64,000 bases of DNA from Escherichia phage GER2, in sequence record MG710528.1. One strand, 5' to 3'. This document shows, piece after piece, positions 45,501-48,500 of the stretch. Position numbers: made by a program. Positions within the stretch are counted from its first letter, which is position 1. Every line of letters starts with the position of its first letter.

Positions 45501-48500
45501 CAGCAAGTCTGGATTTAACAAGAGCGGCAGCTTTTGCCATTCGTATTGTGGCAATTGCTGTTCTGGTCTGGGCAATCCGTTGGTGGTGATATGAATCGTG
45601 TGCTGTATGGCGTGCTTATTGTCCTGCTGCTTGGTTGTGGATCGCTGTGGCTGGCAACAGACCATTACCGTGATAACGCCATCACCTACAAAGAGCAGCG
45701 AGATGATGCGAAGACAAAACTCAGCCAGGCGAACGCCACCATTGCTGACATACAGCAGCGCCAGCGTGATGTTGCTGCACTCGATGCCAGATACACCAGG
45801 GAGCTTGCTGATGCTAACGCGACTATTGAAAGTCTCCGTGCTGATGTTTCTGCTGGGCGTAAGCGCCTGCAAATCGCCGCCACCTGTGCAAAGTCAACGA
45901 CCGGAGCCAGCGGCATGGGCGATGGAGAAAGCTCAGGACTTACAGCAGATGCTGAACTCAATTATTACCGTCTCCGAAGTGGAATCGACAAGATAACCGC
46001 GCAGGTTAACTACCTGCAGGAGTACATCAGGATGCAATGCCTCGATTAACAGAGCCAGCTCAATCGCTGGCCTTTTTTATGAGGAGAGATATAACCTGAA
46101 TCAATGCCAGGGCATTATCAACAAATGGATCACTGGGTAAGCTCGTTTGGTTTTAAATGTCCGTCGAGAATCAGATTGTGATTTTCCCGATGCAGAACCA
46201 GTGTGCCCATATAATCAGGTTTAAATCTCCATCCATTCATTTTTTTTGCAATTCTGGACAGACAGTGATTATGTGTGAAAATCACAGTAACGTGATCTGA
46301 TTTTGATATTTTAAGGATATTATTTACTGCGTTATCATCACATGTCGATATGTCCGGAATAGTTGCTGTCTTACCTCCCGAAAAAAAAGTGGCTGTCTGC
46401 ATTGTTCGGAGTGTGTCTGTAGAATAGAGACTGTAGTATGGAAACATTCTTCTGAATTTATCTCCATATTGTTGAGCTTTGTTAGCTCCGTTTACTGTGA
46501 TTCCCTCATGTGCTGAAAGACATATTCTTTGGGAGCGATCGCATCTTTCCCCATGCCGGATGAGAAAAATAATGGGATGTTTCTGGTTAATCTCAGTGAC
46601 ATCATTCACATCAAGTCTGACTGGAGTTCTTGCAATGTATATGATGGATACAGAAACGATTATGACAAGTAAAAATATAAGAAGAGATTTTGTTAGCGTT
46701 TGATTTAACATATAAATTCCCTTGTCTGTGTTGAAAATGGGCATTATTATGCGTAAATCTTATGTAATCCTTAAGGATTGTCTGACGTGGTGATATGACG
46801 CGAAATACAGTGGGTACACAGAATGCTGTGAACAACGACGAAATGGGCACTGGTAGCGGTACTGGTGCTTTTTTTATTGGTTGGTTGCTCAAGTCTTGAT
46901 AAAGCGCGTTAGCTTTTTGGTATTGCCTCTTAGGTCTGTAAAATTGCCGACGGTGTCCGGCAGTGCATGCAGGGCTGATCGTCTATGAGAACAGAATATA
47001 TTGCTAAAAATGAAGTGTACGTCAATGCTTATAAAGCATGCAATTCTGTATTTCTAACTATTCAATAAAATAAATTCTTTCTGTCGCAGTGAATATACAA
47101 ATGTTGATCAGCGCTCGATGTGGCGACGGGTTTCTATATCAGGAGACTTTAGCATTTATCCGCGAGGCAGCCTATCTGGTGCTGTAGTGGAATGAAGCGG
47201 ATATAACCTAAATAAGGTTAAACATTAATCAGACATGGCTCTGCTGTGTGAAATCTGAAAATTTACAGCAGTCATTGTGCATCAGTTTTTAACAGAGAAC
47301 GTCAGAAGGTGACATGGCAAAGCTGGACTGGAAAAAGCTGGAGCAGGCATTTCGACGCGAACATGTCAAAACCGGCATAAAGCTTCAGGACTGGTGCCGT
47401 CAGAACAATATCAGTTATGACACGGCTCGGCGGTACATTAAACTGCGCAAACACTCCCCCAGAAATACAGAGAAAAGTGCGCAGAAAAATGCGCAAATTG
47501 ATGATCAAAAAAGTGCGCAGAAATCTGACGGCAACTCCAGTCATGACGAGCCTTCAGGCGATGATGGTTGTGATGAAAAATGCGCAAATTTGGCAGAAAC
47601 GAAACGGACTCGTGGTTCCAGACTTTTGCCACCTTCAAATGCTTTTTCTCAGCGTAACACCCACGCCGTCAGACACCGTGGATACGCGAAGTATCTCGAG
47701 GCAGATAACCTCATAGATGATGCAGTCGGAATGGAACTTGCCGATGAACTGGTGTTTACCCGTGCCCGCGCACTTTCAGTAACAGGAACACTGAAAAAGA
47801 TGTTCGCCGACCTGAAAGAGGCGGCTGACGTGGAAACACGGGTAGCTCTGTACGACAAAATACTTAAAGCCGAACAGGCTCTTGACCGGAATATTGCCCG
47901 TATCGAGTCAATTGAACGCTCATTGCTGACGCTGGACGTCCTGGCTGAGACAGCACCAAAACTTCGTGCTGACCGGGAAAGAATCAACGCTGCCAGAGAT
48001 AAACTCAGAGCGGAAACCGATATTCTGACCAGCCAGCGTCGGGGCGTTGTTACGCCTGTCAGTGACATCGTGTCATCGCTGCATGAAATGAGTAATTCGG
48101 GGAGACTGGATGACATTCCGGAAGAATGAACCGCGATGTGATGAACCGTCAGAAATGACCGGGACCGAACAACGTCTGTTCATCATGACTAAACTGAGCA
48201 ATCCCTGGTGGCGGCTCAATCATCTCTACAAGATACAGAACGAAAAAGGTGAGCTGGTCACCTTCAGAATGCGACCGGCGCAGCGCCAGTTGCTCCGGAG
48301 CATGCACAATAAAAATATTATCCTGAAAGCACGCCAGCTGGGGTTTTCCACGGCCATTGATATTTATCTTCTCGACCAGGCATTATTCATACCGCATCTC
48401 AAATGCGGGATTGTCGCTCAGGATAAACAGGCTGCCAGTGAAATTTTCCGCACCAAAATTGCTGTACCGTTTGATCATCTTCCTGACTGGCTGAGAGCCT

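What the first reader, a model, noticed from the sequence alone, without database searches (positions are those of the whole stretch)
46130..46744. Membrane-anchored histidine-phosphatase-like moron between lysis and packaging genes
This opposite-strand, AT-rich gene with an RHG catalytic motif after a hydrophobic N-terminus is bracketed by a terminator (46054..46079) and the terminase operon. That is the classic signature of a lysogenic-conversion moron; an anchored phosphatase could modify envelope or host substrates.
Basis: partly seen in the sequence, partly recalled or inferred. Interest (0 to 1): 0.45.

Follow-up and report, generated by a model that had tools for sequence, protein, structure and literature searches.

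The report
Prophage LPS-core phosphatase wired to PmrA
A resident virus in E. coli (including the O104:H4 outbreak strain) carries a spare copy of a cell-surface enzyme that trims phosphate from lipopolysaccharide. The gene appears to be switched on by the host's own PmrA/BasR envelope-stress regulator, which makes it a credible but modest, and untested, case of a virus changing its host's surface.

Summary
There is an intact, AT-rich (37.6% GC), opposite-strand gene between the Rz lysis gene and terS, with an RHG motif after a very hydrophobic N-terminus.

The identity can be made more exact. It is a paralog of Ais/PmrG, the LPS core heptose(II)-phosphate phosphatase:
- NCBIfam PRK15416 scores 203 bits against a cutoff of 142.
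- It is 43% identical to K-12 Ais.
- The PmrG equivalog model is not met.
- RefSeq already gives it this name in 43 of 5,426 complete E. coli genomes.

The true start is most likely the second ATG (46711, 193 aa), not 46744.

The new result concerns the promoter. A PmrA/BasR box (CTTAAG-N5-CATAAG, 46759-46775) lies 10 nt upstream of a -10 hexamer, the same geometry as K-12 eptA, pmrR and arnB. This box is the only upstream block conserved across diverged prophage paralogs (dS 0.7 to >2), which sit in the same lysis-terminase slot of different phages.

The gene is therefore best read as a lysogenic-conversion moron placed under the host PmrAB regulon. Substrate, regulation and expression are all inferred, not shown. 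It is a new member of a known kind, of moderate interest.

The parts
46130..46711 (-). Coding sequence of the prophage Ais/PmrG-like histidine phosphatase (193 aa plus stop; preferred start at the second ATG)
   Evidence: ORF. PGAP calls the same start in O104:H4 and ES5. NCBIfam PRK15416 scores 202.7 bits against a cutoff of 142, and Pfam PF00300 scores 28.7 against 21.7. It is 43% identical to K-12 Ais. The AF2 model has pLDDT 91.7 and a histidine-phosphatase fold.
46712..46744 (-).
   Evidence: The first ATG has no Shine-Dalgarno sequence and overlaps the predicted -10 hexamer. The SD AAGGGA at 46718-46723 serves the second ATG.
46631..46687 (-). Hydrophobic N-terminal segment (residues 9-27): a signal-anchor or an uncleaved signal peptide
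   Evidence: Kyte-Doolittle 19-residue maximum is 2.93, against 2.02 for K-12 Ais. The AF2 model has a helix at 2-26. The mobile clade has no conserved small-x-small cleavage motif (..IYI[A/V]RTP), unlike Ais with ..THA|AWSS.
46550..46558 (-). RHG catalytic motif (R52-H53-G54), part of the invariant RHGERCDRS block
   Evidence: R52, H53, E55, R56, C57, D58, R59, S60 and C64 are invariant in the 43-sequence alignment A3.
46262..46276 (-). THNHC motif (T146-C150), containing the second catalytic histidine H147 and the conserved C150
   Evidence: H147 and C150 are invariant; T146, N148 and H149 are conserved in at least 90% of sequences.
46759..46775 (-). PmrA/BasR-box-like direct repeat CTTAAG-gatta-CATAAG, in the position of a -35 element
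   Evidence: One mismatch to YTTAAK-N5-YTTAAK. It is the only conserved block in the upstream alignment of diverged paralogs. It is found at -64..-71 in all 7 genome/plasmid paralogs and in all 10 IMG/VR loci that were scanned and had readable upstream sequence. K-12 eptA, pmrR and arnB have the same box, and eptA and pmrR have it at -63 and -61. The consensus comes from PMC3973317 and PMC10570014.
46743..46748 (-). Predicted -10 hexamer AATAAT, 10 nt downstream of the box. The predicted transcription start is near 46736 (inferred).
   Evidence: The spacing is the same, box + 10 nt + xAxxxT, in K-12 arnB (TAAAAT), pmrR (CATACT) and eptA (GAGCAT) and in 7 of 7 paralogs. The consensus scan found no canonical -35/-10 promoter on the - strand upstream of the gene.
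46054..46081 (+). Intrinsic terminator after Rz (GCCAGC-loop-GCTGGC followed by a T-run), at the 3' end of the moron
   Evidence: -12 kcal/mol, z -2.6. Read on the - strand the hairpin has no U-tract, so whether it also stops the moron transcript is uncertain (z -0.69 for the region).
46845..46877 (+). Second + strand intrinsic terminator, just upstream of the moron promoter; part of the cassette
   Evidence: -14.9 kcal/mol and z -4.75 on the + strand, but only -5.7 kcal/mol on the - strand. It is conserved in the E10 paralog cassette.
46072..47228 (.). AT-rich variable cargo slot between Rz and terS (approximate limits)
   Evidence: Related Stx-type phages align only to the Rz end and to the region upstream of terS (query 1-~170 and 1329-1500 of 45900-47400), with other cargo in between. 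GC of 46080-47300 is 38.9%.

Best explanation
This is a moron, meaning an independent transcription unit carried as cargo by a lambdoid (Stx-phage-like, short-tailed) prophage. It encodes a paralog of Ais/PmrG, the enterobacterial LPS core heptose(II)-phosphate phosphatase.

Proposed mechanism:
1. The N-terminal hydrophobic segment exports the protein, and probably holds it in the inner membrane, so the histidine-phosphatase domain faces the periplasm. Conserved cysteines fit a disulfide-bonded periplasmic enzyme.
2. His53 of the RHG motif attacks a phosphomonoester on the LPS inner core. The most likely target is the Hep(II) phosphate added by WaaY, and its removal lowers the negative surface charge.
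3. Transcription does not come from the phage late operon. It comes from a dedicated promoter in which a PmrA/BasR box replaces the -35 element.
4. The lysogen therefore makes the enzyme together with arn/eptA when PmrAB is activated (Fe3+, Al3+, mild acid). This gives a second, mobile dose of an LPS-charge-reducing activity.

What is shown here: the family assignment, the fold, the catalytic residues, the moron anatomy, and the conserved box with its geometry. What is inferred: the substrate, the membrane topology, regulation by PmrA, expression in the lysogen, and any phenotype.
For: Family:
- NCBIfam PRK15416 is above its cutoff, and Pfam His_Phos_1 is above its gathering score.
- The protein is 43% identical to K-12 Ais over 158 aa.
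- The invariant RHGERCDRS...THNHC residues and cysteines are shared with chromosomal Ais/PmrG.
- The AF2 model (pLDDT 91.7) matches histidine-phosphatase structures.
- PGAP names the gene accordingly.

Function of the family: PmrG removes the Hep(II) phosphate and is PmrA-activated (PMC8129183, PMC4312571).

Moron anatomy:
- The gene is on the opposite strand with a 12-15 point GC drop.
- The slot is variable in related phages.
- Paralogs occupy the same slot in prophages whose lysis cassettes differ: lysozyme/Rz, M15 peptidase and GH108.

Promoter:
- The unbiased MAFFT alignment of upstream regions conserves only TTAA..N7..TAAG.
- The box has 0-2 mismatches at -64..-71 in 7 of 7 paralogs and in all 10 IMG/VR loci that were scanned and had readable upstream sequence.
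- Per-lineage shuffle probabilities are 5e-5 to 0.04, while the upstream regions are otherwise about 52% identical and synonymous sites are saturated (dS 0.7 to >2, dN/dS 0.12-0.34).
- The same box + 10 nt + -10 geometry occurs in the K-12 PmrA-dependent promoters of eptA, pmrR and arnB.
- The box consensus and its role in replacing the -35 element come from PMC3973317 and PMC10570014.

Negative controls: the operon-embedded IncI TraG homolog and a fimbria-linked paralog lack the box.
Against: - The PmrG equivalog HMM is not met (113 bits against 170), and identity to the characterised enzymes is only 36-43%. The substrate could therefore differ.
- Across the whole window the 1-mismatch box pattern is not enriched (3 found, 4.2 expected). 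The promoter argument rests on position, geometry and conservation, not on frequency.
- The second half-site is CATAAG rather than CTTAAT.
- No expression, binding or enzymatic data exist.
- No convincing - strand terminator was found.
- Deleting pmrG alone did not change polymyxin resistance in a PmrA-constitutive E. coli strain (PMC8129183), so the phenotypic benefit may be small or specific to metals.
- The host already has chromosomal ais, so it is unclear why a second copy is kept.
Confidence: 0.6

Rival explanations
1. The enzyme acts on LPS, but the selected function benefits the mobile element rather than host stress tolerance. Remodelling the inner core would mask a receptor. That could exclude superinfecting, core-binding phages, or reduce re-adsorption and self-recognition.
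For: About 1,380 conjugative IncI-type plasmids keep a 43%-identical homolog ('TraG') inside the transfer operon traE-traF-_-traH. This points to a role connected with DNA-transfer surfaces. The gene recurs in many different prophages at the classic moron slot.
Against: A conserved PmrA-type, activator-dependent promoter is an odd choice for an exclusion function that ought to be constitutive. PADLOC finds no match to a defence family. No receptor data are available.
Confidence: 0.2
2. It is a periplasmic histidine phosphatase of the Ais family but with a different substrate. Candidates are another core or lipid A phosphate or pyrophosphate, or a non-LPS periplasmic phospho-compound. In that case 'heptose(II)-phosphate phosphatase' is an over-annotation.
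For: The protein fails the PmrG equivalog cutoff. It is only 36-43% identical to chromosomal Ais/PmrG, and the N-terminus and the 113-140 region differ. No structure from this family has been solved.
Against: It passes the subfamily model named for this activity. All catalytic and cysteine positions are shared with PmrG. Co-regulation with LPS-modifying genes, suggested by the PmrA box, points to an LPS substrate.
Confidence: 0.2
3. It acts, directly or indirectly, as a regulator of fimbrial or adhesin expression (AfrS-like) rather than as an LPS enzyme.
For: A truncated paralog is labelled 'transcriptional activator AfrS' by its source. A 49%-identical paralog lies immediately downstream of a chaperone-usher operon.
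Against: The exported histidine-phosphatase architecture, with invariant catalytic residues, does not fit a DNA-binding activator. The fimbria-linked clade lacks the PmrA box and is a different branch. The AfrS label was not verified against the original sequence.
Confidence: 0.05
4. It is a decaying hitch-hiker with no current function.
For: This copy of the prophage carries an IS21 insertion in its head genes. Some paralogs are truncated or have IS elements next to them.
Against: The ORF is intact and at least 99% identical in 43 complete genomes. dN/dS is 0.12-0.34 across lineages with saturated dS. The promoter elements are conserved.
Confidence: 0.03

Closest known systems
Ais (E. coli) / PmrG (Salmonella): chromosomal LPS core heptose(II)-phosphate phosphatase
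   Same: Both are in NCBIfam subfamily PRK15416 and share the RH[GA]ERCDRS and THNHC motifs and the conserved cysteines. Both are about 190-200 aa with an N-terminal export signal. Both are linked to PmrA.
   Different: Identity is only 36-43%, and the PmrG equivalog model is not met. This gene is prophage-borne rather than next to the arn operon. Its N-terminus is longer and more hydrophobic and lacks the ..HA|AWSS cleavage motif. It has its own PmrA box at -64. In chromosomal ais the only box is the shared arnB box 150-210 nt upstream.
IncI-plasmid 'TraG' histidine phosphatase family protein (annotated as LPS core heptose(II)-phosphate phosphatase in pESBL of O104:H4)
   Same: It is a mobile-element-borne member of the same family, about 43% identical and of the same length and motifs.
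   Different: It is embedded in the tra operon on the same strand as its neighbours, with no PmrA box (3 or more mismatches) and no separate promoter.
Lambda bor-type morons (opposite-strand, lysogen-expressed cargo genes just downstream of Rz). This comparison rests on general knowledge of lambda and was not tested here.
   Same: Same position after the lysis cassette and before packaging, opposite strand, envelope-targeted product, and deviating base composition.
   Different: The protein is unrelated: Bor is an outer-membrane lipoprotein, whereas this is a phosphatase. Here the promoter appears to depend on a host response regulator.
Known PmrA/BasR-dependent promoters (eptA/pmrC, pmrR, arnB/pbgP)
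   Same: Two hexamers 5 bp apart in the orientation of transcription, a 10-nt gap to the -10 hexamer, no -35 element, and about 61-71 nt to the start codon for eptA and pmrR.
   Different: The second half-site is CATAAG in this allele (CTTAAG or CTTAAT in other paralogs). The promoter is on a prophage. Binding has not been tested.
SixA-like minimal histidine phosphatases (structural neighbours, e.g. 1ujb)
   Same: The compact branch-1 histidine-phosphatase fold.
   Different: Sequence identity is only 12-17%. These proteins are cytoplasmic, act on different substrates, and have no N-terminal membrane segment and no conserved cysteines.

Membership tests
Histidine phosphatase superfamily, branch 1 (PF00300) | Profile score above Pfam's gathering threshold | tested here: met
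   28.7 bits against 21.7; only the N-terminal half of the profile is matched.
Histidine phosphatase superfamily, branch 1 (PF00300) | RHG motif with the nucleophilic His, plus further catalytic Arg and His residues | tested here: met
   R52, H53, R56, R59 and H147 are invariant in 43 sequences, and R102 is conserved in at least 90%. G54 alternates with A in chromosomal Ais/PmrG.
Histidine phosphatase superfamily, branch 1 (PF00300) | Alpha/beta phosphoglycerate-mutase-like fold | tested here: met
   AF2 pLDDT 91.7. The top Foldseek PDB hits are all histidine phosphatases with probability 1.00 (MutT1 C-domain, phosphoserine phosphatase (PSP), RosC, SixA).
Ais/PmrG LPS core heptose(II)-phosphate phosphatase | NCBIfam subfamily model PRK15416 above its cutoff | tested here: met
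   202.7 bits against 142, covering residues 20-198 of the 204-aa form.
Ais/PmrG LPS core heptose(II)-phosphate phosphatase | PmrG equivalog model (NF052369) above its cutoff, i.e. the same function as the characterised enzyme | tested here: not met
   113.2 bits against 170. I therefore file it as a paralog in the subfamily, not as PmrG itself.
Ais/PmrG LPS core heptose(II)-phosphate phosphatase | Export to the periplasm (N-terminal signal; conserved cysteines) | tested here: inconclusive
   There is a strong hydrophobic N-terminal helix, and C57, C64 and C150 are invariant. No signal-peptide predictor or topology experiment was available, and a cleavage site is not evident.
Ais/PmrG LPS core heptose(II)-phosphate phosphatase | Removes the phosphate from Hep(II) of the LPS core | not testable with these tools
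   This needs LPS mass spectrometry or an enzyme assay. The activity of the family is taken from PMC8129183 and PMC4312571.
Ais/PmrG LPS core heptose(II)-phosphate phosphatase | Chromosomal position next to the arn (pmrHFIJKLM) operon | tested here: not met
   The gene lies between Rz and terS of a prophage. K-12 ais is next to arnB.
Phage moron | An extra gene between two genes that are adjacent, or hold other cargo, in related phages | tested here: met
   Related Stx-type phages share the Rz and terS flanks but carry other content in between.
Phage moron | Base composition different from the surrounding phage genes | tested here: met
   37.6% GC against 50-55%.
Phage moron | Own promoter and terminator, separate from the phage operons | tested here: inconclusive
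   A conserved activator-type promoter is predicted. Two + strand terminators bracket the cassette, but no convincing - strand terminator was found.
Phage moron | Expressed from the repressed prophage | not testable with these tools
   No transcript data were available, and no paper on this gene was found.
PmrA/BasR regulon | PmrA box (two YTTAAK-like hexamers 5 bp apart) overlapping the -35 position, in the direction of transcription | tested here: met
   CTTAAGgattaCATAAG at 46759-46775, then 10 nt, then AATAAT. The K-12 eptA, pmrR and arnB promoters have the same layout.
PmrA/BasR regulon | The site is conserved by selection in orthologous or paralogous promoters | tested here: met
   It is the only conserved upstream block in lineages with saturated dS. 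It is present in 7 of 7 genome/plasmid paralogs and in all 10 IMG/VR loci that were scanned and had readable upstream sequence.
PmrA/BasR regulon | BasR~P binds the site and transcription depends on basRS and its inducing signals | not testable with these tools
   This needs EMSA or footprinting and reporter or qRT-PCR assays.

The most novel reading that the evidence does not exclude
A clade of Ais-like phosphatases has become dedicated mobile cargo of E. coli lambdoid prophages. It always sits in the lysis-terminase slot, and each copy carries its own PmrA/BasR-dependent promoter. Under this reading, prophages (including one in the O104:H4 outbreak lineage) plug an inner-core LPS dephosphorylation step into the host PmrAB envelope-stress circuit. 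That would be a kind of lysogenic conversion acting on LPS core charge rather than on O-antigen. It would measurably affect tolerance to metals or cationic peptides, or recognition by core-binding phages and IncI pili.
Probability: 0.35. Interest if true: 0.55.

Novelty: new member of a known kind. Interest (0 to 1): 0.4.

Why it matters
Known prophage conversion of LPS mostly alters the O-antigen, by glucosylation or acetylation. A prophage enzyme acting on inner-core phosphates, and controlled by the host PmrAB system that governs tolerance to polymyxin, Fe3+ and Al3+, would add a mobile and strain-variable layer to that resistance circuit. It is found in about 1% of complete E. coli genomes, including all O104:H4 genomes listed among the hits.

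It also offers a clean natural example of a horizontally acquired, AT-rich gene keeping a host response-regulator site while everything around that site has diverged. The practical consequences are probably modest. Deleting the chromosomal paralog alone has little effect on polymyxin resistance in E. coli (PMC8129183).

Tried and rejected
- tblastn against 50,697 deposited phage genomes found no match. PHROGs and PADLOC also found nothing. The family is therefore absent from the phage and defence libraries, although 22 IMG/VR prophage-derived contigs carry it.
- The PDB sequence search found nothing at E <= 1.
- The Rfam scan of 45500-47500 found nothing at E <= 1, so there is no known RNA element in the slot.
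- Window-wide counting of the PmrA pattern showed no enrichment (3 found, 4.2 expected). I dropped frequency as an argument and used position and conservation instead.
- A - strand terminator for the moron is only a weak, non-conserved hairpin at 46111-46095. The region is not better folded than shuffles.
- I asked whether the gene explains the higher polymyxin tolerance of the 2009 Georgian O104:H4 isolates (PMC3486847). This is rejected, because the gene is present and equally similar to the window allele (99.6%) in both the 2009 and the 2011 genomes.
- Literature searches for a prophage-borne PmrG/Ais found nothing relevant.
- The 'AfrS' label on a truncated paralog could not be traced in the searchable literature.
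- The chromosomal ais promoters do not show the same proximal box, so the prophage promoter is not simply a copy of the ais upstream region.
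Full report
**1. The observation**

The window contains an ORF on the minus strand at 46130..46744, 204 aa from its first ATG. It lies between the Rz-type lysis gene (stop at 46049) and the small terminase gene (start at 47314).

GC content falls from 50-55% in the flanking genes to 36-39% across the ORF. The gene itself is 37.6% GC, and the slot 46080-47300 is 38.9%.

The protein has an RHG motif (46550-46558) after a strongly hydrophobic N-terminus. The Kyte-Doolittle 19-residue maximum is 2.93 at residues 9-27.

It folds at -12 kcal/mol with z = -2.6 against shuffles.

The ORF is not a chance reading frame:
- It matches NCBIfam PRK15416 at E = 4e-60.
- It matches Pfam His_Phos_1 above the gathering score.
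- It evolves under purifying selection, with dN/dS 0.12-0.34 against six paralogs.

**2. The start codon**

The second ATG (46711) is preceded by AAGGGA at the right distance for a Shine-Dalgarno sequence (46718-46723). NCBI's pipeline uses this start in every complete genome I inspected, giving 582 nt and 193 aa. The first ATG has no Shine-Dalgarno sequence and overlaps the predicted -10 hexamer. I number residues from the 193-aa form.

**3. What the protein is**

[quoted passage not shown] The stricter PmrG equivalog model is not met, at 113 bits against 170. The protein is 43% identical to E. coli K-12 Ais over 158 residues.

A 43-sequence alignment includes chromosomal Ais/PmrG from Escherichia, Salmonella and Citrobacter. 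In it R52, H53, E55, R56, C57, D58, R59, S60, C64, H147 and C150 are invariant, and R102 is conserved in at least 90% of sequences. The catalytic set of a branch-1 histidine phosphatase is therefore intact.

An AlphaFold2 model built on that alignment is confident (pLDDT 91.7). It has an N-terminal helix at 2-26 followed by a compact alpha/beta domain. Its Foldseek neighbours in the PDB are all histidine phosphatases: the MutT1 C-domain, phosphoserine phosphatase, RosC and SixA. No member of the Ais family has a solved structure detectable by sequence.

According to the literature, PmrG removes the phosphate from heptose II of the LPS core and is activated by PmrA (PMC8129183, PMC4312571).

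**4. Anchored or secreted?**

Chromosomal Ais/PmrG proteins end their signal sequence with ..(T/Q)HA|AWSS, a typical signal-peptidase site. The mobile clade instead has a longer and more hydrophobic segment that runs straight into a conserved RTP, as in ..IYIARTP..IIFSRTP and ..VWMVRTP. In both complete-genome alleles I compared (O104:H4 and ES5), residue 27 is Val rather than the Ala of this window.

A signal-anchor with the catalytic domain in the periplasm is therefore plausible. The conserved cysteines fit a periplasmic, disulfide-bonded domain. I had no signal-peptide predictor and no experiment, so this remains an inference.

**5. Genomic context and distribution**

[quoted passage not shown] The carriers include the 2009 and 2011 O104:H4 strains, ML35, and bovine and porcine isolates.

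The surrounding genes form a lambdoid, Stx-phage-like prophage. In order they are: the nin region, Q, a SASA esterase, holin, lysozyme, Rz, this gene, terS, terL, portal and an N4-gp56-type capsid protein.

Related phages such as P13374, phi191 and POCJ13 share the Rz and terS flanks but carry other cargo between them. P13374 has a Rha-like regulator there.

Diverged paralogs (61-80% nucleotide identity, 51-76% amino-acid identity) occupy the same lysis-terminase slot on the opposite strand in prophages whose lysis cassettes are not homologous. These cassettes include M15 peptidase and GH108 types. Other copies sit on plasmids next to IS elements.

This is the anatomy of a moron. None of 50,697 deposited phage genomes contains a homolog, nor does PHROGs. 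In contrast, 22 IMG/VR prophage-derived contigs do.

**6. The promoter, the main new point**

I aligned the upstream regions of five paralogs without any prior pattern. The only conserved block was TTAA..N7..TAAG. Read in the direction of the gene, the window has CTTAAG-gatta-CATAAG at 46759-46775.

This matches the PmrA/BasR box: two hexamers (CTTAAG or CTTAAT, then xTTAAT or CCTAAG) 5 bp apart that replace the -35 element (PMC3973317, PMC10570014).

| Promoter | Box | Position from ATG | Sequence 10 nt downstream |
|---|---|---|---|
| Seven genome/plasmid paralogs | 0-2 mismatches to YTTAAK-N5-YTTAAK | -64 to -71 | xAxxxT hexamer in all seven (window AATAAT, PSJ-22 TATAAT, A10 CATAAT) |
| K-12 eptA | CTTAAGgttggCTTAAT | -63 | GAGCAT |
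| K-12 pmrR | CTTAAGgttcaCTTAAT | -61 | CATACT |
| K-12 arnB | CTTAAGgttaaGTTAAT | -97 | TAAAAT |

The three K-12 promoters, read from MG1655, have exactly the same layout as the paralogs.

Further support:
- All 10 IMG/VR loci that I scanned and that had readable upstream sequence repeat the pattern.
- Shuffling each upstream region gives a probability of 5e-5 to 0.04 per lineage for so good a match at that position.
- The upstream regions are otherwise about 52% identical, which is background level.
- Synonymous sites in the genes are saturated, with dS from 0.7 to above 2. Retention of the box therefore indicates selection.
- The consensus scan finds no sigma-70 -35/-10 pair upstream of the gene on its strand, as expected for an activator-dependent promoter.

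Controls behave sensibly:
- The IncI-plasmid homolog, which sits inside the tra operon, has no box.
- A fimbria-linked paralog has none.
- A Salmonella copy with an IS element inserted directly upstream has lost the box.

One caveat applies. Over the whole 64-kb window the 1-mismatch pattern is no more frequent than chance, with 3 found against 4.2 expected. The argument rests on position, geometry and conservation. Binding was not tested, and a close PmrA paralog such as QseB cannot be excluded as the regulator.

**7. Terminators**

Two + strand intrinsic terminators bracket the cassette. One follows Rz at 46054-46071. The other lies at 46845-46870, just upstream of the moron promoter. The second is stable only on the + strand (-14.9 against -5.7 kcal/mol), because several of its pairs are G.U, and it is conserved in the E10 cassette.

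They would limit + strand transcription across, and out of, the antisense of the moron in a lysogen. During lytic growth, Q-modified polymerase would read through them; that last point is inference from lambda biology. I found no convincing terminator for the moron's own transcript.

**8. Most likely mechanism**

1. In the lysogen, activated BasR/PmrA (Fe3+, Al3+, mild acid) binds the box and recruits RNA polymerase.
2. A short-leader mRNA starting near 46736 is translated from the ATG at 46711.
3. The N-terminal segment inserts into the inner membrane, with the phosphatase domain in the periplasm.
4. His53 attacks a phosphomonoester of the LPS inner core, most likely the Hep(II) phosphate, as newly made LPS passes through the periplasmic face.
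5. The cell surface becomes less anionic, in step with the host's arn and eptA modifications.

The family, fold, catalytic residues, moron anatomy and conserved promoter architecture are shown. Regulation, topology, substrate and phenotype are inferred. I put about 0.6 on the whole statement, with more on the family assignment (about 0.95) and on PmrA control (about 0.7) and less on the exact substrate (about 0.5).

**9. Rival explanations**

- The enzyme may serve the mobile element by masking a core receptor. About 1,380 IncI-type conjugative plasmids keep a 43%-identical homolog inside their transfer operon, which hints at a role tied to DNA-transfer surfaces. A stress-regulated promoter fits this less well.
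- The substrate may not be Hep(II)-P, because the equivalog model fails.
- An 'AfrS-like' regulatory role is suggested only by a source label on a truncated paralog and by a fimbria-linked branch. It does not fit an exported enzyme.
- Decay is contradicted by the selection analysis.

**10. Comparison with what is known, and novelty**

The protein family and its name are already in RefSeq annotation, so the gene as such is not new. I found no paper describing a prophage-borne Ais/PmrG paralog or its PmrA box, and phage protein libraries lack the family.

It is best classed as a new member of a known kind: a moron that carries a known LPS-modifying enzyme family under a known host regulator. The idea that prophages modify LPS, and that morons can be controlled by host two-component systems, is established in general. 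The specific target (inner-core phosphate) and the specific wiring (PmrA) would be new for a prophage.

The gene cannot explain the polymyxin difference reported among O104:H4 isolates (PMC3486847), because it is present in both the 2009 and the 2011 genomes.

Interest is moderate, at 0.4.

Noticed in passing
window 54919-56720 (- strand): An IS21-family IstB/IstA pair (260 and 340 aa) is inserted in the head-gene region. It interrupts collinearity with the O104:H4 and ES5 prophages at 54853/56807, so this copy of the prophage is probably defective.
   Followed up: partly
window 46845-46877 (+ strand): A strong intrinsic terminator lies just upstream of the moron promoter. It is stable only on the + strand (G.U pairs) and is conserved in the E10 paralog cassette. 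Together with the Rz terminator it brackets the antisense of the moron. Its role is unexplained.
   Followed up: partly
L093 2432-3016 (IncI plasmid Plm) and about 1,380 other conjugative plasmids: IncI-type plasmids carry a 43%-identical Ais-like histidine phosphatase ('TraG') between traF and traH, on the operon strand and without a PmrA box. Why a transfer operon keeps an LPS-core-phosphatase-like gene is unclear.
   Followed up: partly
L097 4001-4585 (E. coli KTE146); protein P0066: A 49%-identical paralog sits directly after a chaperone-usher fimbrial operon and an EAL-domain gene, with no PmrA box. A truncated paralog is labelled 'transcriptional activator AfrS' by its source. This may be a link between the family and fimbrial loci.
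   Followed up: partly
L095 3604-4582 (Salmonella enterica contig): The 69-70%-identical Salmonella copy has an IS3-family transposase gene ending 67 nt upstream. The PmrA box is gone but a TATAAT remains, which looks like a natural promoter swap.
   Followed up: partly
L002 5621-5911 and L012-L028 (chromosomal ais-arnB intergenic regions): In Escherichia and Citrobacter the only PmrA box upstream of chromosomal ais is the arnB box, 150-210 nt away. It reads as a box in both orientations because its half-sites are near-palindromic, so the prophage paralogs have a more canonical PmrA promoter than ais itself.
   Followed up: partly
L099 2571-3227: A 53%-identical paralog (P0026), whose N-terminus looks degenerate, lies near a DsbA-like thioredoxin gene and an IS element. 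This hints at a mobile pairing of a periplasmic oxidoreductase with a cysteine-containing phosphatase.
   Followed up: no
window 13213-13287 (- strand): This is the only tRNA gene in the window, tRNA-Arg(CCT). It may be phage cargo or an attachment-site marker.
   Followed up: no
window 46632 (codon 27): This window's allele has Ala27 at the end of the hydrophobic segment. The O104:H4 and ES5 alleles have Val27. All 43 complete-genome copies differ from the window at about 3 of 671 positions, but the box, the -10 hexamer and the SD are identical in the two genomes compared.
   Followed up: yes
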